Source of the DNA: Candidatus Magasanikiibacteriota bacterium | GTDB lineage: Bacteria; Patescibacteriota; Patescibacteriia; Magasanikbacterales; GWA2-37-8 | DNA length: 64,000 nucleotides | Direction of reading: 5' to 3' | Assembly (NCBI GenBank): GCA_041666265.1 | Contig: JBAYHH010000001.1 | Span: 72,056-136,055, forward strand | In this document: positions 17,995 to 23,543 of the stretch, in pieces | How the letters are laid out: each line of letters begins with the position of its first letter | How positions within the stretch are numbered: position 1 is the stretch's first letter | Notes under the pieces: generated by a model | Database searches by the model: none | The model's input: the letters and a program-made list of their open reading frames with translations, nothing else | Told to the model about the DNA's origin: nothing | Position numbers and translations under genes: made by a program

Positions 17995-19017
17995 ATGGAT
18001 AATCAAATGGATAGCAAGGTTTCGAAAAATGTAAAGTTATTTTTGTTTGGGTTTGCCGGATTGCTGATCACGGCGCTCGTGCTTGTTGTCGGTGTATCGG
18101 CATATCGCGTTTATCATGCGGCCGCGAGCGACCGTTTTACGGTGACCGTCGCCAAGGCATTGCGTTTTCCGGCGTTTAAAGTGGGTGATAAAACTGTTTT
18201 ATACTCCGATTATGTCGAGGATTTGGCCGCTATTCATGTGATGCGCGATTTTGACAAAAATAATGGCGGACAAGGAGCGAGTCTGACCGAGGAACAAATG
18301 TCTGACCAAGTGCTTTGGCGTCTCGCCAACAATGTTTTGATCAAGCAGGCCGCTTTGCAAAATAAAGTAACGGTCGAAGATAAAGATATTGAAGCGATTA
18401 AGAGCCAAGTGCTTCAGCAATTTAAAACAACCGCCGAAGCCGAAACCGAACTTAAACGCCGTTATGGCTGGGATATGGATACTTATGACAAAAAAGTGAT
18501 TCGACCGTATGTTTTGCAAAATAAATTATCCGAAGCGATCGGCACTAATAATCAAGCGCGCGAAATGATGCGTGCCAAGGCGCAAGTGGTTCTCGATGAA
18601 ATCAAAAAAGGAGCGGATTTTGCCACCGAAGCGAAAAAATACGGTAGTGACGGCACCAAAGAAAATGGCGGTGACCTTGGTTGGTTTGGCCGAGGTGATA
18701 TGGTGCCGCAGTTTGAGGAAGCGGCGTTTGCTTTGAAAAAAGGCGAGCTGTCGCCGGAATTGGTAGAGACATCGTATGGTTATCATATCATCAAGCTCGT
18801 CGATACGCGCACTGAAAAAACCAAAGACGAGAAAGGTAAATCAGTGGACACCCCTCAAGTGCGCGCGAGTCACATTTTATTTCCTTTTCCGACCCTGACG
18901 ACTTATCTTGACGAGATTGTCAACAAAGCAAATTTTCATTTGTATCTCAATGTGCACAATCCGTTTGCGGAGTTAAAGAAACAAAAAGCCGCCGCTGCCA
19001 GCTCAACCAATCAATAA
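17995..19017 (+). CDS. parvulin-type peptidyl-prolyl isomerase (PrsA/SurA-like), membrane-anchored
   Basis: N-terminal TM; parvulin rotamase motifs RASHILF...GGDLGWFGRGDMVPQFEEAAF...YGYHIIKL. Confidence 0.75.
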   Translation: MDNQMDSKVSKNVKLFLFGFAGLLITALVLVVGVSAYRVYHAAASDRFTVTVAKALRFPAFKVGDKTVLYSDYVEDLAAIHVMRDFDKNNGGQGASLTEEQMSDQVLWRLANNVLIKQAALQNKVTVEDKDIEAIKSQVLQQFKTTAEAETELKRRYGWDMDTYDKKVIRPYVLQNKLSEAIGTNNQAREMMRAKAQVVLDEIKKGADFATEAKKYGSDGTKENGGDLGWFGRGDMVPQFEEAAFALKKGELSPELVETSYGYHIIKLVDTRTEKTKDEKGKSVDTPQVRASHILFPFPTLTTYLDEIVNKANFHLYLNVHNPFAELKKQKAAAASSTNQ

Positions 19018-19079
19018 TTATTACAGTTTTTAGGGTTTATAGGGGCTTCGACCACATCGAGGCCCCTTTGAAACCAAAT

Positions 19080-19150
19080 GCGGGATTAGTACATCGGTAG
19101 TATGCGTCCTTCCCAAGGATGAGAGGCCGGTTCGATTCCGGTATCCCGCT
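19080..19150 (+). tRNA. tRNA-Gly(CCC)
   Basis: GCGGGAT acceptor stem, anticodon stem CGTCC/GGATG with loop TTCCCAA (CCC), T-arm GCCGG-TTCGATT-CCGGT; CCA not encoded. Confidence 0.85.
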
Positions 19151-19187
19151 CGATTCGGTAAACGACGGAATGGCTAAAATTTGGTAA

Positions 19188-19230
19188 AATATACCCATAT
19201 TGTGGACACCTGTGGATAAGCGGGTATAGA
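19188..19230 (+). promoter_or_regulatory. putative controller-protein operator: inverted repeat ATATACCC...GGGTATAG flanking direct repeats TGTGGACA / TGTGGATAA
   Basis: seen directly ~30-70 nt upstream of the XRE gene start (19259). TGTGGATAAG recurs at 22523 and 22719. Confidence 0.45.
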
Positions 19231-19258
19231 TATTCCAATATCACTATTATTATATCAC

Positions 19259-19468
19259 ATGGCAAATAAACTTCCAAATATCGCCAGAAACATTAAGAAG
19301 TTGCGAAAAGAAAAAGGACTCTCGCAAGATCGTCTTTCAAAAATGGCGGATATAGCCCATCCGACCATTATTAAAATCGAATCCGGCGCAATCCAAAGCC
19401 CGACGGTTGAAACCGCGCAACGAATCGCGCGTGCGTTGGGTGTTGGAATTGATGACTTAATGAAATAA
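19259..19468 (+). CDS. XRE/Cro-type HTH protein, probable controller (C) protein of the downstream restriction-modification module
   Basis: 69 aa; LRKEKGLSQDRLSKMADIAHPTIIKIESG classic HTH_3; sits directly upstream of the MTase-REase pair. Confidence 0.7.
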   Translation: MANKLPNIARNIKKLRKEKGLSQDRLSKMADIAHPTIIKIESGAIQSPTVETAQRIARALGVGIDDLMK

Positions 19469-19475
19469 TTTTTAT

Positions 19476-21251
19476 ATGGCGAAATTAAAAGACACTCCAA
19501 AATTTGATCGACCACGAGAAAAATATATTGAAAAAGGTCCTGACGCGCTAACCGATAGCGAACTTTTGGCGATTTTACTTGGCAATGGCACAAAAGGCAT
19601 GAATGTAAAAGTCGTTGCGCAAAAAATTATAAAAAAATTTGGAACCAATCTGATAAATGTGTCGGTTGACGAACTGAAAGAAATTAAAGGAATTGGGCAA
19701 GCAAAGGCATTACAAATTGTTTCGGTGATTGCGTTGGCGAAACGACTGTTTGATAAGCAAAATGCGCCGGACAATTTAGTTTTATCTGCGCAAGACGCGG
19801 TAAAATTAGTGATAGAATTGAAAGATAAAAAACAAGAACACCTCGTTTGTTTGTATCTTAATGCTCGCAATGCCTTAATTAAAAAGGAAATTGTTTCCAT
19901 TGGAACGCTGGACAAAAGCATTGTTCATCCGCGTGATATTTTTGCATTGGGTTTAGAGTTGCATGCGGCCGGTGTTATTCTCATACACAATCATCCGTCC
20001 GGGGATGTTAGACCAAGCGAGCAGGATAAGCAAGTTGTCAAAAGAATTATTGAAGCTGGGCAGTTAATGGGTGTTAACGTCGTAGATTTTCTCATAGTGG
20101 CCAAGAATGCCACGCATAGCGTGTTGGGTGAAACCAGTAACACCAAGTTAGCCGACATCGAATATGTGGCCGAAGGATTGCAAGCGTCGTTGTTTAGTTT
20201 GCTAACGGAAACAAAGCAGGTTTATTTTTATGGAAACAATTTGATTGATACTTCGCCGACCAGCAGTAAAAGTTTTCGTTTCATTGATTTGTTTGCCGGC
20301 ATTGGCGGTATACGAATCGCTTTTGAACGCAATGGCGGTCAATGTGTTTTCACATCTGAATTTGATGAACCGTGCCAAGTAATGTATGAGGCAAATTTTG
20401 GAGATAAACCACATGGAGATATCACGAAAATTTCTGCCGATGAAATACCGGATCACGATATTTTAACTGGCGGTTTTCCCTGCCAAGCATTTAGTATAAT
20501 TGGAAAGAAACGTGGATTTGCGGATACTCGCGGCACTTTATTTTTTGATGTTGAAAGAATTTTAAAGGTGAAACAACCAAAAGCTTTTCTTCTGGAGAAT
20601 GTAAAACAGTTAACATCTCATGACGGGGGGCGCACATTTAAGATAATTATAGAATCTTTAAAAAATCTAGGGTATTATGTCCATTACAAAGTGCTTAACG
20701 GTCTTGACTTTGGTGTGCCACAAAGACGACAAAGGATAATGATAGTTGGTTTCAAAGAGAATTATCCTTTTGAATTTCCGAAGAGCGGATCGGATAACAA
20801 AACATTAGCCGATATTTTGGAACCGGACGGCAAAATTGATAAAAAACATTATCTAAGCGACAGTTTTCGGAAAAAATTGCAAGAAAGATTAAAAGAACAG
20901 GGCAAAAAGCCTGCACCCCAACCATCTGTTTGGCATGAGAATAAAGGTGGCAATATCGGGATGCACCCTTACTCGTGCGCGTTGAGAGCCAATGGATCTT
21001 ATAATTATTTGACAGTGAACGGAGAGCGACGACTTACACCAAGAGAAATGTTGCGTTTGCAAGGATTCCCAGATACTTTTAGAGTTGTTGTTCCGGATAC
21101 ACAAGTGAGAAAACAAGCGGGCAATAGTGTGGTTATTCCAAAAATTCAAGCAGTCGCGCGCGCTATGGTGGAAGCAATGAAACAGCCAGCAAGGGACGAA
21201 TCACATAAAGTTGGCTCATTAATTAATAAATCTGAAATAATTTATGCCTAA
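19476..21251 (+). CDS. fusion protein: N-terminal RadC (HhH + JAB/MPN, UPF0758) domain joined to a C-terminal DNA (cytosine-5)-methyltransferase
   Basis: aa 1-225: DSELLAILLGNG...GIGQAKALQI (HhH) and HNHPSGDVRPSEQD (JAMM). aa ~260-591: m5C-MTase motif I DLFAGIGG, motif IV GFPCQAFS, motif VI LLENVKQL, motif X QAGNSV. Confidence 0.8.
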   Translation: MAKLKDTPKFDRPREKYIEKGPDALTDSELLAILLGNGTKGMNVKVVAQKIIKKFGTNLINVSVDELKEIKGIGQAKALQIVSVIALAKRLFDKQNAPDNLVLSAQDAVKLVIELKDKKQEHLVCLYLNARNALIKKEIVSIGTLDKSIVHPRDIFALGLELHAAGVILIHNHPSGDVRPSEQDKQVVKRIIEAGQLMGVNVVDFLIVAKNATHSVLGETSNTKLADIEYVAEGLQASLFSLLTETKQVYFYGNNLIDTSPTSSKSFRFIDLFAGIGGIRIAFERNGGQCVFTSEFDEPCQVMYEANFGDKPHGDITKISADEIPDHDILTGGFPCQAFSIIGKKRGFADTRGTLFFDVERILKVKQPKAFLLENVKQLTSHDGGRTFKIIIESLKNLGYYVHYKVLNGLDFGVPQRRQRIMIVGFKENYPFEFPKSGSDNKTLADILEPDGKIDKKHYLSDSFRKKLQERLKEQGKKPAPQPSVWHENKGGNIGMHPYSCALRANGSYNYLTVNGERRLTPREMLRLQGFPDTFRVVVPDTQVRKQAGNSVVIPKIQAVARAMVEAMKQPARDESHKVGSLINKSEIIYA

Positions 21252-22302
21252 CATTAGAATGTCAAAAGAGGCGATAGATACAATTATCCGCAAGTCGCGC
21301 GTCCATTTGTATAAGCCAATCCAAATTGCCGAATTACTATATCATCACAGAATAGATAAAAAACGATGGGACCTGCTTGATCTGGAATCGTATCGCAATG
21401 TATCAAAAAGATGGCGCGACGAAGTGTCCAATCGTTTGGTTGGCAGAATTTGCACATCAAGTCAAAAATTTCAAGATAATATTTTTGATACAAACGCAAT
21501 GCCGCCCAAGTTGCTGCGCGATTTAGGTCTTTTCAATAAGCGACGCAATGGGTTCGTAGAAGCGTATATTTATAATGCCTTAAATGAAAGACTGTCATCG
21601 GTGCATGATGTAAACACTTACATTCACAAATCAACAGCGGTGAGTTTTGATTTAAAAAAGATAGTCGCTTTGTTTGAGTTGAGCCCGGGATTAAAAAGAA
21701 GTGTGGACAAAATTTATGAAATTCTTGTATATGCGTTATTTTCTACTATCGTAAGAGCTCTACGCGCCCAAATAACACTTGAAATTTTGAACGAAGACAA
21801 GCAGCTGCTTAAAGATTTTGAGTCCTTTATTAAAATGGTGATGGGTATTGATGCCAAGAATACAAAGATAATATTGCCTGCAGCTTTATATAGAGCCGGT
21901 GTCGCCAATGCCGCAGATAGAGGGTTGGATATGTGGGCAAATTTCGGTCTGGCTATTCAAGTTAAACATTTAACACTTACGCCGGAATTAATGGAGGATG
22001 TGGCGAATGAAATAGCGGCGGATAGAATGGTTGTGGTTTGTATAGATTCCGAGAAAGAGGCCATAAATAATTTATTATCGCAAGTTGGTTGGGGAGAAAA
22101 AATCCATGGGATTATCACCATTGATGATCTGGATCAATGGTATAAAATTTGTCTTAGCGATAAGTATAGAAGTAATTTAGGTAAAAATTTATTGAAGGAT
22201 GTTGAAAGAGAGTTTGGTCTGGAATTCCCATCAAATTCTGAATTGATTCCATTTATAAACGAACGCGGATACGCGAAATTTAAGACGGATTTTAAATGGT
22301 AA
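21244..22302 (+). CDS. putative type II restriction endonuclease (unknown specificity), translationally coupled to the MTase
   Basis: 8-nt overlap with the MTase gene; AT-rich (~38% GC, estimated by eye); 352 aa with no similarity to housekeeping families. Assignment is by gene context. Confidence 0.45.
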   Translation: MPNIRMSKEAIDTIIRKSRVHLYKPIQIAELLYHHRIDKKRWDLLDLESYRNVSKRWRDEVSNRLVGRICTSSQKFQDNIFDTNAMPPKLLRDLGLFNKRRNGFVEAYIYNALNERLSSVHDVNTYIHKSTAVSFDLKKIVALFELSPGLKRSVDKIYEILVYALFSTIVRALRAQITLEILNEDKQLLKDFESFIKMVMGIDAKNTKIILPAALYRAGVANAADRGLDMWANFGLAIQVKHLTLTPELMEDVANEIAADRMVVVCIDSEKEAINNLLSQVGWGEKIHGIITIDDLDQWYKICLSDKYRSNLGKNLLKDVEREFGLEFPSNSELIPFINERGYAKFKTDFKW

Positions 22303-22446
22303 AGTATAAATTGTCAAACACATTGATGATGAATGGTTGTTTAAATAAAAAACAACCCCTTGCGGGGATGTTTCCAACCTTGTTTCCTAGACTGGTGACC
22401 CAGCCACGCCACCATCCGGTGACAGTTCGGAGAACAGGTTTTTGTA

Positions 22447-23301
22447 ATGCTATTATATACTGCAAACAAGCACTTGTCAATAGAAAATTTTGATATTTTA
22501 TCTAATATTAGCCAAAAGGGGCTGTGGATAAGTAATAATATGTCCGAATATTACACCCCTCAACGCACTAAAAATTTATACGACCCAAAATCACTGGACT
22601 CTTTTAAACTCTCGCGTTCCAAGATAGATTTGTTTTTAGAGTGTCCGCGTTGTTTTTATTTAGACCGTCGTTTAGGTGTGGGCCGACCGCCCGGATTTCC
22701 ATTTGCACTTAATTCGGCTGTGGATAAGTTGCTCAAGAAGGAATTTGATATCCACCGTGCTAAAAAACAGGCGCATCCATTGATAACCCACTACGGCGTT
22801 GACGCAGTGCCAATCGCGCACAAAGATTTGGATATCTGGCGTGAAAATTTTAAAGGCATACAATATTTACACGAGCCAACCAATTTGGTTATCACCGGCG
22901 CTATTGATGATCTCTGGCAAAATTCAAAAGGGGAGTATATTGTGGTGGATTATAAGTCCACATCCAAGGACGAAGATATTACCGAGCTTAATAAAGATTG
23001 GCAAGGCGGCTATAAGCGCCAAATGGAGGTGTACCAGTGGCTATTACGCCGGAATGGATATAAAGTGTCTAAGACTGGGTATTTTGTTTATTGCAATGGC
23101 CAAACCGACCGCAAGGCGTTTGATGCTAAGTTGGAATTTGATATCACTTTAATTGCCTACAAGGGCGATGATTCTTGGGTGGATAAAGCTGTTATTGGCG
23201 CGCATAAGTGTTTGAATGGCAATAAAATTCCAAAATCCGGCGCGGATTGCGATTATTGTGCGTATGTACAGGCGGTAGAAAGTAAAACATTGTTGACTTA
23301 G
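22447..23301 (+). CDS. Cas4/RecB-like PD-(D/E)xK nuclease with predicted Fe-S cluster cysteines (start uncertain; alternative ATG at 22540)
   Basis: N-terminal CPRCFY; AIDDLW...YIVVDYKST (D...D/ExK); QMEVYQW (QxxxY); C-terminal C-x14-CDYC cysteine cluster. Confidence 0.65.
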   Translation: MLLYTANKHLSIENFDILSNISQKGLWISNNMSEYYTPQRTKNLYDPKSLDSFKLSRSKIDLFLECPRCFYLDRRLGVGRPPGFPFALNSAVDKLLKKEFDIHRAKKQAHPLITHYGVDAVPIAHKDLDIWRENFKGIQYLHEPTNLVITGAIDDLWQNSKGEYIVVDYKSTSKDEDITELNKDWQGGYKRQMEVYQWLLRRNGYKVSKTGYFVYCNGQTDRKAFDAKLEFDITLIAYKGDDSWVDKAVIGAHKCLNGNKIPKSGADCDYCAYVQAVESKTLLT

Positions 23302-23417: not shown

Positions 23418-23490
23418 GCCGCCTTAGCTCAGTTGGTAGAGCGACACATTCGTAACGTGTAGGTCTCGGGTTCGATTCCCGAAGGCGGCT
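23418..23490 (+). tRNA. tRNA-Thr(CGU)
   Basis: GCCGCCT acceptor, TAGCTCAGTTGGTAGAGC D-arm, anticodon loop TTCGTAA (CGU), T-arm TCGGG-TTCGATT-CCCGA. Confidence 0.8.
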
Positions 23491-23543
23491 CGATTTATAC
23501 ACAGCGCCATCTTGCCGATTGGCTTTTTTTGTTTTTGAATGTG

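What the first reader, a model, noticed from the sequence alone, without database searches (positions are those of the whole stretch)
19476..21251. RadC (JAB/MPN metallopeptidase-like + HhH) fused in frame to a DNA cytosine-5 methyltransferase
A single uninterrupted 591-aa ORF has a complete RadC domain (JAMM motif HNHPSGDVRPSEQD, N-terminal HhH) joined by a ~40-aa linker to a complete m5C-MTase (motifs I FAGIGG, IV PCQ, VI ENV, X GNSV). RadC-like proteins are frequent on mobile elements, but I am not aware of a fusion to the modification subunit of an RM system. The HhH/RadC part could serve as a DNA-targeting or anti-restriction-style accessory for the methylase.
Basis: seen in the sequence. 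Interest (0 to 1): 0.7.

Follow-up and report, generated by a model that had tools for sequence, protein, structure and literature searches.

The report
RadC module on restriction-modification methylase
A real single gene in a tiny groundwater-type (CPR) bacterium joins the mystery protein RadC to the protective methylase of a HaeII-type restriction system, and the same RadC add-on turns out to be a widespread, swappable module on many different restriction-system methylases, giving a new handle on what RadC does.

Summary
Window 19476-21251 (+) is one uninterrupted 591-aa ORF with UPF0758_N/HhH, an intact RadC JAB domain and a complete C5 DNA methylase. A near-identical intact copy exists in an independent assembly.

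It is the M gene of an HTH–M–R operon whose R gene is a HaeII-family endonuclease. The operon lies in a low-GC island between two tRNA genes of a Candidatus Magasanikbacteria genome.

The fusion is not a one-off. About 95 of the 120 best database clusters share the architecture. The RadC half stays about 78% identical while the methylase half falls into classes about 45% identical, each followed by its own nuclease (HaeII, HpaII, HinP1I, NgoFVII-like, AlwI). Related modules sit on D12 and N6_N4 adenine methylases. Unfused HaeII systems also exist, so RadC is an optional, portable accessory.

All fusions share a connector (YVAEGxQxSLFDLL) that standalone RadCs lack. It is poorly ordered in AlphaFold models and matches the beta-clamp-binding consensus QxxLF.

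Best reading: an accessory module that places the methylase and an active JAB enzyme on newly made DNA. That mechanism is inferred, not shown.

I found no paper describing this. I rate it a new variant of a known kind, of moderate interest.

The parts
19080..19151 (+). tRNA-Gly(CCC); left edge of the low-GC island that holds the R-M unit
   Evidence: ARAGORN and Rfam. GC is 0.37-0.41 over about 19.1-23.3 kb against 0.44-0.51 in the flanks.
19259..19468 (+). 69-aa HTH_3 protein, candidate controller (C) protein, ending 7 nt before the fusion gene
   Evidence: Pfam HTH_3 1.2e-17. PADLOC 'Control_protein' 3e-8. Homologues lie directly upstream of the RadC-methylase gene in L014 (60% identity), L007 (59%) and L010 (39%). 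No C-box-like inverted repeat was found upstream.
19476..21251 (+). RadC-connector-C5 methylase fusion gene (591 aa), the M gene of the operon
   Evidence: The same ORF is intact in L030. The architecture recurs in about 95 of the 120 best clusters.
19488..19709 (+). UPF0758_N / helix-hairpin-helix DNA-binding part (aa 5-78)
   Evidence: Pfam PF20582 5e-23; HHH and HHH_5 hits are below their cut-offs. Helical in both AlphaFold models. Foldseek gives weak similarity to RAD51/RadA N-lobe and DisA HhH regions.
19785..20123 (+). RadC-type JAB/MPN domain (aa 104-216) with the intact metal site E121, H171, H173, S181, D184
   Evidence: Pfam PF04002 6e-36. PDB 2QLC matches by sequence at 7e-25 and by fold at TM 0.87, rmsd 1.8 A. 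H171, H173, S181 and D184 are invariant in 102 fused proteins, where numbers them one position higher; E121, H171, H173 and D184 are also invariant in the alignments, and S181 is invariant and nearly invariant.
20160..20207 (+). Fusion-specific conserved connector EYVAEGLQASLFSLL(T) (aa 229-244); core QASLF (aa 236-240, nt 20181-20195) matches the beta-clamp-binding consensus QxxLF / QL[S/D]LF
   Evidence: In 102 fused proteins: Y 102/102, G 100/101, Q 101/102, S/T 100/102, L 101/102, F 99/102. In a second, more diverse set, 76/90 are Q..LF. Q.[ST]LF occurs in 0/124 standalone RadC and 0/25 unfused methylases. pLDDT is about 48-62. The consensus is taken from PMC12309361.
20208..20267 (+). Disordered, variable-length K/N/S-rich spacer (aa 245-264); the boundary at which methylase partners are exchanged
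   Evidence: pLDDT below 50 in both models. Column conservation is low and gaps are common. Similarity breaks here in P0008 vs P0019 and in window vs P0009, P0016 and P0070.
20274..21170 (+). C5 cytosine DNA methylase domain (aa 267-565), HaeII-type
   Evidence: Pfam PF00145 2e-95 over the full-length profile. TIGR00675 at 329 bits. PADLOC MTase_II 1e-120. It is 77-83% identical to unfused methylases that sit next to RE_HaeII.
21244..22302 (+). HaeII-family type II restriction endonuclease (352 aa); its start overlaps the methylase stop by 8 nt
   Evidence: Pfam RE_HaeII 4e-127, profile positions 2-338 of 338. PADLOC REase_II 5e-120. It is 82% identical to the REase next to the orthologous fusion in L001/L002.
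23418..23491 (+). tRNA-Thr(CGT); right edge of the low-GC island

Best explanation
What it is (shown, about 0.9). The ORF is one genuine gene. It encodes the modification methylase of a HaeII-type (inferred target RGCGCY) type II restriction-modification operon with the order HTH - M - R. The operon sits on a low-GC island between tRNA-Gly and tRNA-Thr in a Candidatus Magasanikbacteria (CPR/Patescibacteria) genome. Its N-terminal 265 aa are a portable accessory module with four parts: an HhH DNA-binding domain, a RadC JAB domain with an intact metal site, a conserved connector (YVAEGxQxSLFDLL), and a disordered spacer. This module belongs to a distinct RadC lineage found almost only fused to DNA methylases. 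It has been recombined onto at least seven C5 methylase classes and, in related forms, onto D12 and N6_N4 adenine methylases. Each methylase is followed by its own nuclease. The R-M system does not need the module, because unfused versions exist.

How it most likely works (inferred, about 0.25-0.3). The module does not set sequence specificity or methylation chemistry. Instead it localises the methylase. The HhH domain gives sequence-independent DNA contact. The exposed QxSLF connector docks on the beta sliding clamp. Together they would keep the methylase, and the active JAB enzyme, on freshly synthesised, not yet fully modified DNA, so that modification keeps pace with the co-encoded nuclease. 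This would be a bacterial analogue of DNMT1 riding on PCNA. The substrate of the JAB active site is unknown. Its strict conservation says it does chemistry, on DNA or on a DNA-bound protein, at the same place.
For: Real gene and real R-M system.
Recurrence: about 95 of the 120 best clusters have the architecture.
Module shuffling:
- Between methylase classes the RadC halves are 77.7% identical (up to 94.4%) against 45.2% for the methylase halves; Spearman 0.25.
- P0008 and P0019 are 94% identical through the connector and then 44%.
- The window's methylase half is closer to unfused methylases (77-83%) than to most fused ones (about 42%).
Different nucleases follow different classes: HaeII, HpaII + Vsr, HinP1I + Vsr and an unannotated 373-aa protein, NgoFVII-like + Vsr and AlwI with two D12 methylases.
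Partners from three methylase families: PF00145, PF02086 and PF01555.
The main fused RadC lineage, with both C5 and D12 partners, has 195/200 bootstrap support.
RadC is optional: unfused M-R-Vsr HaeII systems exist in CPR genomes.
The unit is mobile: flanking genes differ in every locus and the island has low GC.
Catalytic residues are invariant.
Connector:
- As conserved as the active site.
- Present in fusions to all three methylase families.
- Absent from standalone RadC.
- Retained in P0085, where the HhH domain and both zinc histidines are lost.
- Low pLDDT despite its conservation, with pTM 0.53 for the whole protein, so the two domains are not rigidly packed.
- It matches the published clamp-binding consensus, in which positions 1, 4 and 5 are critical.
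The system looks active: RGCGCY is mildly depleted (94 vs 119.5, z = -2.4) and absent from 18072-22897.
Against: No binding, localisation or activity data exist, so the clamp idea rests on a five-residue match plus conservation and disorder.
The conserved block is 14 residues long, longer than a typical clamp-binding motif.
Position 2 is usually small (A/S/G/T) and not aliphatic, which weakens binding in model systems.
Three of nine divergent fusions lack the critical Phe (QYGIS, QITLS, QYALS).
In the full-length model the segment has intermediate confidence (pLDDT about 62, with short strands), so partial docking on a domain is not excluded.
A single origin for all fused lineages is not supported by bootstrap (16-23/200).
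The 102-sequence conservation sample is dominated by one methylase class.
Whether these genomes also carry a standalone radC could not be checked.
NCBI annotates a near-identical locus as a 335-aa methylase only.
Confidence: 0.6

Rival explanations
1. Assembly or annotation artefact: radC and the methylase are really two adjacent genes and a stop or frameshift was lost in assembly.
For: NCBI's annotation of a near-identical MAG lists a 335-aa methylase starting at an ATT codon inside the ORF. Truncated relatives are common in the databases.
Against: The ORF is intact in an independent assembly from another sample, with 1 mismatch in 1776 nt. The identical 591-aa product is on record from JGI, Logan and ENA. 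About 95 clusters at 51-81% identity keep the frame across a spacer of variable length. The junction carries a motif conserved at the protein level, which an out-of-frame or intergenic stretch would not.
Confidence: 0.03
2. Functionally neutral fusion: a resident housekeeping radC happened to lie upstream of an inserted R-M cassette, the stop codon was lost, and the RadC part does nothing for the R-M system.
For: Compact CPR genomes often have overlapping or fused genes (my own knowledge). RadC is a near-universal bacterial gene. The R-M system works without it elsewhere.
Against: The same RadC lineage is fused to methylases of three families and at least six R-M systems. The upstream neighbours differ in every locus, so RadC travels with the R-M genes and is not a fixed resident. 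The fused RadCs form their own lineage, with 195/200 support for the main one. They also carry a connector absent from standalone RadC. RadC identity of 69-82% across the differently named CPR groups (Moranbacteria, Gracilibacteria, Beckwithbacteria, Kerfeldbacteria) is too high for vertical descent (inference).
Confidence: 0.08
3. Transformation-coupled protection (DpnA-like): RadC, a competence-regulon protein in several model bacteria, brings the methylase to incoming single-stranded or recombining DNA. Newly acquired DNA is then methylated before the nuclease sees it.
For: RadC has an HhH domain and its contexts link it to DNA entering cells, such as fusions to ArdC and presence in conjugative-element proteins that handle incoming ssDNA. 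RadC-like genes are abundant on conjugative plasmids: 1648 of 2387 plasmid hits. The competence-regulon membership of radC and the reliance of CPR bacteria on DNA uptake are my own knowledge. The fusion is always to M and never to R.
Against: radC mutants show no transformation defect in the models studied (Attaiech 2008, as cited). Nothing in these loci links them to competence genes. This reading does not explain the connector motif. Typical type II methylases act on duplex DNA.
Confidence: 0.15
4. Self-processing polyprotein: the JAB domain is a peptidase that cuts at the conserved connector and releases a free methylase (and free RadC). This could time methylase activity relative to the nuclease.
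For: The nearest characterised folds are JAMM isopeptidases (5LDA, BubCD). Polyvalent proteins of mobile elements use embedded peptidases for processing. The connector is conserved, exposed and lies directly after the JAB domain.
Against: RadC-type JAB domains are argued to lack the ubiquitin-tail groove and are predicted to act on nucleic acids. P0085 keeps the connector although both zinc histidines are gone. AlphaFold does not place the connector in the active site.
Confidence: 0.07
5. Establishment or anti-restriction aid: the RadC part is a nuclease or anti-restriction-type factor that helps the mobile R-M unit survive entry into a new host, or acts as a second nuclease alongside the HaeII enzyme.
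For: Iyer et al. predict nuclease or nucleic-acid-processing activity for RadC from its fusions to ArdC, DnaG and DinG. The unit is horizontally mobile.
Against: No relative of the fused lineage was found on phages, plasmids or IMG/VR contigs. A dedicated nuclease is already encoded next door. No nuclease activity has ever been shown for RadC. A permanent fusion to the housekeeping arm of the system is an odd design for a function needed only on entry.
Confidence: 0.07

Closest known systems
HaeII / NgoAI-type type II R-M systems (RGCGCY; m5C methylase + RE_HaeII)
   Same: The gene pair and order are the same. The REase matches the full-length Pfam RE_HaeII profile (4e-127). The methylase carries all the C5 motifs. 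CPR relatives have M + R (+ Vsr) with a methylase about 80% identical.
   Different: Here the methylase carries a 265-aa N-terminal RadC module, a small HTH gene precedes it, and no Vsr gene follows.
Standalone RadC / UPF0758 proteins (E. coli YicR, B. subtilis RadC; PDB 2QLC)
   Same: HhH N-domain plus a JAB domain with E...HxH...S..D. It scores above the NCBIfam equivalog cut-off. The fold matches 2QLC at TM 0.87.
   Different: Standalone proteins are about 210-235 aa and end near aa 217. They are at most 50% identical to the fused lineage and lack the connector. The fused lineage is joined to a methylase.
Previously described RadC fusions (ArdC, DnaG-like primase, DinG/RAD3 helicase, polyvalent proteins of conjugative elements; Iyer et al. 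2011, 2017; RadC-like DinG review 2025)
   Same: RadC is used as one module of a multidomain DNA-handling protein linked to conflict between genomes and mobile elements.
   Different: The partner here is the modification methylase of a chromosomal type II R-M operon. The passages and papers I could search do not list that architecture. Those other fusions occur on conjugative elements or helicases, and this lineage was not found on plasmids or phages.
C5 methylases with N-terminal regulatory extensions (SsoII / EcoRII / MspI type, N-terminal HTH; my own knowledge)
   Same: An R-M methylase carries an N-terminal add-on that is not needed for catalysis but modulates how the system operates.
   Different: Those add-ons are short HTH repressor regions. 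This one is a 265-aa enzyme-containing module, and the HTH is a separate upstream gene.
DNMT1-PCNA tethering through a PIP box (eukaryotes), and bacterial clamp-binding clients with QL[S/D]LF
   Same: A short Q-x-x-L-F type motif sits in a flexible segment next to a DNA methylase. This would couple methylation to replication (consensus; DNMT1-PCNA is my own knowledge).
   Different: Binding is untested here. The conserved block is longer than a canonical motif and position 2 is not aliphatic. I know of no bacterial R-M methylase shown to bind the clamp, and a search for 'clamp-binding motif' with 'methyltransferase' and 'restriction-modification' found nothing.

Membership tests
Type II restriction-modification system, HaeII family | A methylase with the complete set of C5 motifs (I FxGxG, IV PCQ, VI ENV, X GNSV) | tested here: met
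   Pfam PF00145 2e-95 over profile positions 1-323 of 324. TIGR00675 at 329 bits. Motif positions.
Type II restriction-modification system, HaeII family | A cognate HaeII-family endonuclease gene adjacent and co-oriented | tested here: met
   RE_HaeII 4e-127, full-length profile match, with its start overlapping the M stop. PADLOC REase_II 5e-120.
Type II restriction-modification system, HaeII family | Methylation of and cleavage at RGCGCY | not testable with these tools
   Indirect only: RGCGCY is 94 observed vs 119.5 expected (z = -2.4) and there is no site in 18072-22897.
RadC / UPF0758 family | JAB/MPN fold with the metal-binding residues E, HxH, S, D | tested here: met
   PF04002 6e-36. 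2QLC matches by sequence and by fold. Residues are invariant in the fused family.
RadC / UPF0758 family | N-terminal UPF0758_N / HhH domain | tested here: met
   PF20582 5e-23. NCBIfam RadC equivalog at 217.6 bits against a cut-off of 180.
RadC / UPF0758 family | Standalone protein of about 220 aa | tested here: not met
   591 aa, fused to a methylase. Standalone relatives are at most 50% identical and end near aa 217.
Controller (C) protein-regulated R-M system | Small HTH_3 protein encoded in the operon | tested here: met
   69-aa HTH_3 at 1.2e-17. PADLOC Control_protein 3e-8. It is conserved upstream of the fusion gene in L007, L010 and L014.
Controller (C) protein-regulated R-M system | C-box operator (inverted repeats) upstream of the C gene | tested here: inconclusive
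   No inverted repeat was found in 19152-19258; the only one detected lies inside the HTH coding region. No +-strand promoter-like site was found there. HTH homologues were not detected upstream in L001, L003, L009, L012 or L015.
Beta-sliding-clamp clients (clamp-binding motif) | Pentapeptide matching QL[S/D]LF or QxxLF with Q1, L4 and F5 | tested here: met
   QASLF at aa 236-240. In the family, Q 101/102, L 101/102 and F 99/102, and 76/90 in a second set. Three of nine divergent members lack F5. Consensus.
Beta-sliding-clamp clients (clamp-binding motif) | Motif lies in an exposed, flexible segment | tested here: met
   pLDDT is about 48 in the module-only model and about 62 in the full-length model. 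It is followed by a disordered spacer, aa 245-264.
Beta-sliding-clamp clients (clamp-binding motif) | Physical binding to DnaN | not testable with these tools
   No complex prediction or experiment was available.
Polyvalent proteins of conjugative elements and phages (Iyer et al. 2017) | Encoded on a conjugative element, plasmid or phage | tested here: not met
   The locus is a chromosomal island among housekeeping genes. No relative of the fused lineage was found in the phage, plasmid or IMG/VR collections.
Type IIG/IIC single-chain R-M enzymes (nuclease fused to methylase) | The fused non-methylase domain is the system's endonuclease and no separate R gene is needed | tested here: not met
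   A separate dedicated REase follows in every intact locus examined. No nuclease activity is known for RadC.

The most novel reading that the evidence does not exclude
The RadC-connector module is a replisome-tethering device. Its QxSLF motif binds the beta sliding clamp, making these the first bacterial R-M methylases shown to ride the replication fork as DNMT1 does on PCNA. The strictly conserved JAB active site would then act on nascent DNA or on a fork-associated protein. That would finally place the 30-year-old orphan protein RadC in replication-coupled DNA processing.
Probability: 0.2. Interest if true: 0.75.

Novelty: new variant of a known kind. Interest (0 to 1): 0.55.

Why it matters
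RadC is among the most widespread bacterial proteins with no known function. Its original 'DNA repair' label was withdrawn, and a 2025 review still calls its activity unknown.

A RadC lineage that is repeatedly recombined onto the methylases of unrelated restriction systems, and never onto the nucleases, says that RadC's activity is useful wherever unmodified DNA has to be modified. That points to newly replicated or newly acquired DNA.

The fusion gives a practical experimental handle. The methylase half has an easily read output (methylation, and protection from the cognate nuclease), so the contributions of the HhH domain, the JAB active site and the connector can be measured by simple deletions and point mutants.

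For restriction-modification biology it adds a new class of accessory module. If the clamp link holds, it adds a new way of coordinating modification with replication. It also shows that annotation pipelines label these genes inconsistently, as RadC, as a methylase, or split in two.

Tried and rejected
1. Artefact or frameshift. Rejected on the independent assembly L030 and on recurrence. The NCBI MAG DNA could not be fetched.
2. A protease that clears covalently trapped C5 methylase from DNA. I considered this because C5 enzymes form covalent intermediates. I rejected it as a general explanation because the same module is fused to D12 and N6_N4 adenine methylases, which do not.
3. RadC substitutes for Vsr. 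Rejected: the HpaII, HinP1I and NgoFVII-like fused systems have both RadC and Vsr.
4. radC and the methylase as adjacent genes in the unfused relatives (a fission/fusion pair). Not seen: no radC lies upstream of the unfused HaeII methylases.
5. Single origin of all fused RadCs. The point NJ tree gives one clade, but bootstrap support is only 16-23/200, so I do not claim it.
6. Connector binds the REase. Unlikely, because the nucleases belong to unrelated families while the motif stays the same (inference).
7. Searches that found nothing useful: the IMG/VR pattern scan; phages and plasmids, which gave only standalone RadC at 42% identity or less; the profile libraries for the 373-aa and 473-aa proteins of L007; and a protein search with the degenerate N-terminus of P0085, which returned nothing, not even P0085 itself, so it is uninformative.
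8. C-box search upstream of the HTH gene: no inverted repeat was found.
9. Literature searches for RadC with methyltransferase, restriction-modification, CPR or sliding clamp found no description of this architecture.
Full report
OBSERVATION

Window 19476-21251 (+) is a single ATG-initiated ORF of 591 aa with no internal stop.
- Pfam places UPF0758_N at aa 5-78 (5e-23), the RadC JAB domain at aa 104-216 (6e-36) and a full-length C5 DNA methylase at aa 267-565 (2e-95, profile positions 1-323 of 324). The classic HhH models hit only below their cut-offs.
- NCBIfam scores the N-terminal half above the RadC equivalog cut-off (217.6 against 180 bits) and the C-terminal half as dcm (329 bits).

IS IT ONE GENE?

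An independent JGI contig from another sample (L030) has the same ORF intact, with one mismatch in 1776 nt. The identical 591-aa product is on record from JGI, Logan and ENA assemblies. About 95 of the 120 best-scoring database clusters, at 51-81% identity and from many assemblies, keep the same in-frame architecture across a spacer whose length varies.

One caveat remains. NCBI annotates a near-identical MAG with only a 335-aa methylase that starts at the ATT codon for I258. I could not fetch that DNA. Given the other evidence, I read this as an annotation choice.

SURROUNDINGS

The organism is a Candidatus Magasanikbacteria (CPR/Patescibacteria) MAG, according to the names NCBI gives to the neighbouring proteins.
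- Seven nucleotides upstream ends a 69-aa HTH_3 gene (19259-19468). It resembles R-M controller proteins.
- Overlapping the methylase stop by 8 nt starts a 352-aa HaeII-family restriction endonuclease (Pfam 4e-127, full-length profile match).
- The unit lies between tRNA-Gly (19080-19151) and tRNA-Thr (23418-23491). Its GC is 0.37-0.41 against 0.44-0.51 outside.
- HaeII sites (RGCGCY) are mildly depleted in the window (94 against 119.5 expected, z = -2.4). None occurs between 18072 and 22897.

This is therefore an HTH-M-R type II restriction-modification operon on an acquired island, and the fusion gene is its M gene.

THE FUSION IS A FAMILY, AND THE RadC PART IS A PORTABLE MODULE

Half-by-half comparison shows that the RadC half is 68-82% identical to the window in all fused relatives apart from the degenerate P0085 (22%). 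The methylase half falls into discrete classes at about 85, 69, 54, 42 and 34%.

In a 41-sequence alignment there are seven methylase classes:
- Between classes, the RadC halves average 77.7% identity (up to 94.4%) and the methylase halves 45.2%.
- Within classes, the figures are 79.7% and 83.3%.

P0008 and P0019 are 94% identical from residue 1 through the connector. They drop to 44% from the spacer onward. The window's methylase half is closer to unfused methylases (77-83%) than to most fused ones.

Each class has its own nuclease downstream:

| Nuclease downstream of the fusion | Loci |
|---|---|
| HaeII | window, L001/L002 |
| HpaII + Vsr | L003/L004, L010 |
| HinP1I + Vsr | L009; a decayed copy in L008 |
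| NgoFVII-like + Vsr | L015 |
| Unannotated 373-aa protein | L007 |
| AlwI + a second D12 methylase (fusion partner is a D12 adenine methylase) | L012, L014 |

A further representative is fused to an N6_N4 methylase (P0130). In two profile searches the only recurrent fused partners were DNA methylases, and never a nuclease.

Flanking genes differ in every locus, so RadC travels with the R-M genes. HaeII-type systems with a methylase about 80% identical exist in other CPR genomes without any RadC (M-R-Vsr). The module is therefore optional.

Named sources are mostly Patescibacteria: Moran-, Gracili-, Beckwith-, Kerfeld-, Staskawicz-, Kaiser- and Levybacteria, and Minisyncoccia. Some MAGs are labelled Omnitrophica, Elusimicrobia, Aminicenantes and others.

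In a neighbour-joining analysis of the RadC core:
- The main fused lineage, with both C5 and D12 partners, has 195/200 bootstrap support.
- A second lineage (P0137 with a C5 partner, P0150 with a D12 partner) has 200/200.
- The union of all fused forms has only 16-23/200. I therefore do not claim a single origin for all of them.

ANATOMY OF THE MODULE

The JAB metal-site residues (E121, H171, H173, S181, D184) are invariant or nearly so across the fused proteins: H171, H173, S181 and D184 in all 102, and E121 in the alignments. The domain matches the only solved RadC structure (2QLC) by sequence (7e-25) and by fold (TM 0.87, rmsd 1.8 A). JAMM isopeptidases are the next-nearest folds.

Directly after the domain comes a connector, EYVAEGLQASLFSLL (aa 229-244):
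- It is as conserved as the active site: Y 102/102, G 100/101, Q 101/102, S/T 100/102, L 101/102, F 99/102.
- It is present in C5, D12 and N6_N4 fusions.
- Q.[ST]LF, its core, occurs in 0 of 124 standalone RadC representatives and 0 of 25 unfused methylases.

A variable K/N-rich spacer follows. AlphaFold2 models show two well-folded domains with no confident mutual arrangement (pTM 0.53) and a disordered stretch at aa 245-264. In a module-only model with a deeper alignment, the connector itself has pLDDT of about 48 while the RadC core has 80-90. High conservation with low structural confidence is the signature of an interaction motif.

In P0085 the module has decayed. This protein comes from a genome whose neighbouring genes include fatty-acid synthesis genes, so it is probably not CPR. 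Its HhH domain is gone and both zinc histidines are replaced, yet the connector GYIAEGRQATLFDLL is intact.

MECHANISM

Shown:
- The module is independent of methylation chemistry and of target sequence.
- It is always attached to the protective (M) arm.
- It keeps an intact catalytic site.
- It is flexibly tethered.
- It carries a conserved exposed motif.

Inferred: the motif core Q-x-S/T-L-F matches the bacterial clamp-binding consensus QL[S/D]LF, or more generally QxxLF, in which positions 1, 4 and 5 are critical (PMC12309361 and a 2026 preprint). My leading model is that the HhH domain and this motif keep the methylase and the JAB enzyme on newly synthesised DNA at the sliding clamp, so that modification keeps pace with the co-encoded nuclease. 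I give this about 0.25-0.3.

Points against:
- The conserved block is 14 residues, longer than a canonical motif.
- Position 2 is small and not aliphatic.
- Three of nine divergent members lack the final Phe.
- There are no binding data.

Rivals are a DpnA-like role on incoming DNA, JAB-mediated self-cleavage at the connector, an establishment or anti-restriction role, a neutral fusion, and an artefact. They are scored in the rival list. I rejected a covalent-adduct protease role for C5 methylases as a general explanation because adenine methylases carry the same module.

COMPARISON WITH WHAT IS KNOWN

The R-M part is an ordinary HaeII-family system. The RadC part meets the sequence and fold criteria of the family but not its standalone architecture. 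[quoted passage not shown] None of the passages or papers I could search mentions a fusion to R-M methylases. That includes a 2026 preprint on CPR methyltransferases. No relative of this lineage was found in the phage, plasmid or IMG/VR collections. The sequences themselves are already in public databases under inconsistent names.

VERDICT

I rate it a new variant of a known kind, with interest 0.55. It is not categorically new, but it gives an experimentally tractable lead on the long-standing question of RadC function. It also raises a testable proposal of clamp-coupled modification.

Noticed in passing
window 22372-22440 (-), with 22452-22480 and 22355-22369: An Rfam DUF3800-IX RNA (53.4 bits, gathering score 36.8) lies between the HaeII gene and the next gene. 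On its strand it is preceded by a perfect 12/12 sigma-70-like promoter (TTGACA-17-TATAAT) and followed by a terminator-like hairpin with a T-run. It looks like a discrete small RNA gene transcribed towards the 3' end of the nuclease gene.
   Followed up: partly
window 22447-23301 (+): A 284-aa PD-(D/E)XK / Cas4-like nuclease gene (Pfam PDDEXK_1 4.5e-16) sits inside the same low-GC island downstream of the R-M operon. It is absent from the orthologous locus L001, and no homologue was found in any fetched locus.
   Followed up: partly
NCBI protein MFA6485832.1 (P0271), equivalent to window 20250-21251: NCBI annotates the near-identical MAG with only a 335-aa methylase that starts at an ATT codon inside the 591-aa ORF, leaving the RadC half unassigned or split off. 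Other members of the family are named either 'DNA repair protein RadC' or 'DNA (cytosine-5)-methyltransferase 1'.
   Followed up: partly
L031 2628-3596 and L032 2136-3104 (P0286), and many proteins: Many D12-type RadC fusions are only 315-330 aa and end at the same point just after methylase motif I (...DIFAGTGVVG.RFNFNQ). In L031/L032 a Bro-N gene starts 3 nt later, followed by a PLDc_2 nuclease, an N6_N4 methylase fragment and an AAA_15/21 ATPase. This looks like a recurrent interruption or replacement of the methylase body.
   Followed up: partly
L003 11156-12702: A CBASS-like pair (CD-NTase_C and Cap15 receptor domain) lies directly downstream of the RadC-M.HpaII-type / R / Vsr unit in a Moranbacteria contig, so the fusion sits in a defence island there.
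   Followed up: no
L005 8001-9539 (P0085): A HaeII-type methylase (77% identical to the window's) carries a degenerate RadC remnant: the HhH domain is missing and HNHPSG is replaced by AESRISGN. The connector GYIAEGRQATLFDLL is intact. Neighbouring genes include fatty-acid synthesis genes, so the host is probably not a CPR bacterium.
   Followed up: partly
window, whole 64 kb: While RGCGCY is depleted (z = -2.4), the complementary-flank variant YGCGCR is enriched (189 observed vs 156 expected, z = +2.5). Total GCGC is as expected. This is consistent with selection shifting the flanks of GCGC away from the HaeII site.
   Followed up: no
L001 10900-14436: In the orthologous locus a 1178-aa protein with no Pfam match follows the HaeII gene. 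It has no counterpart in the window.
   Followed up: no
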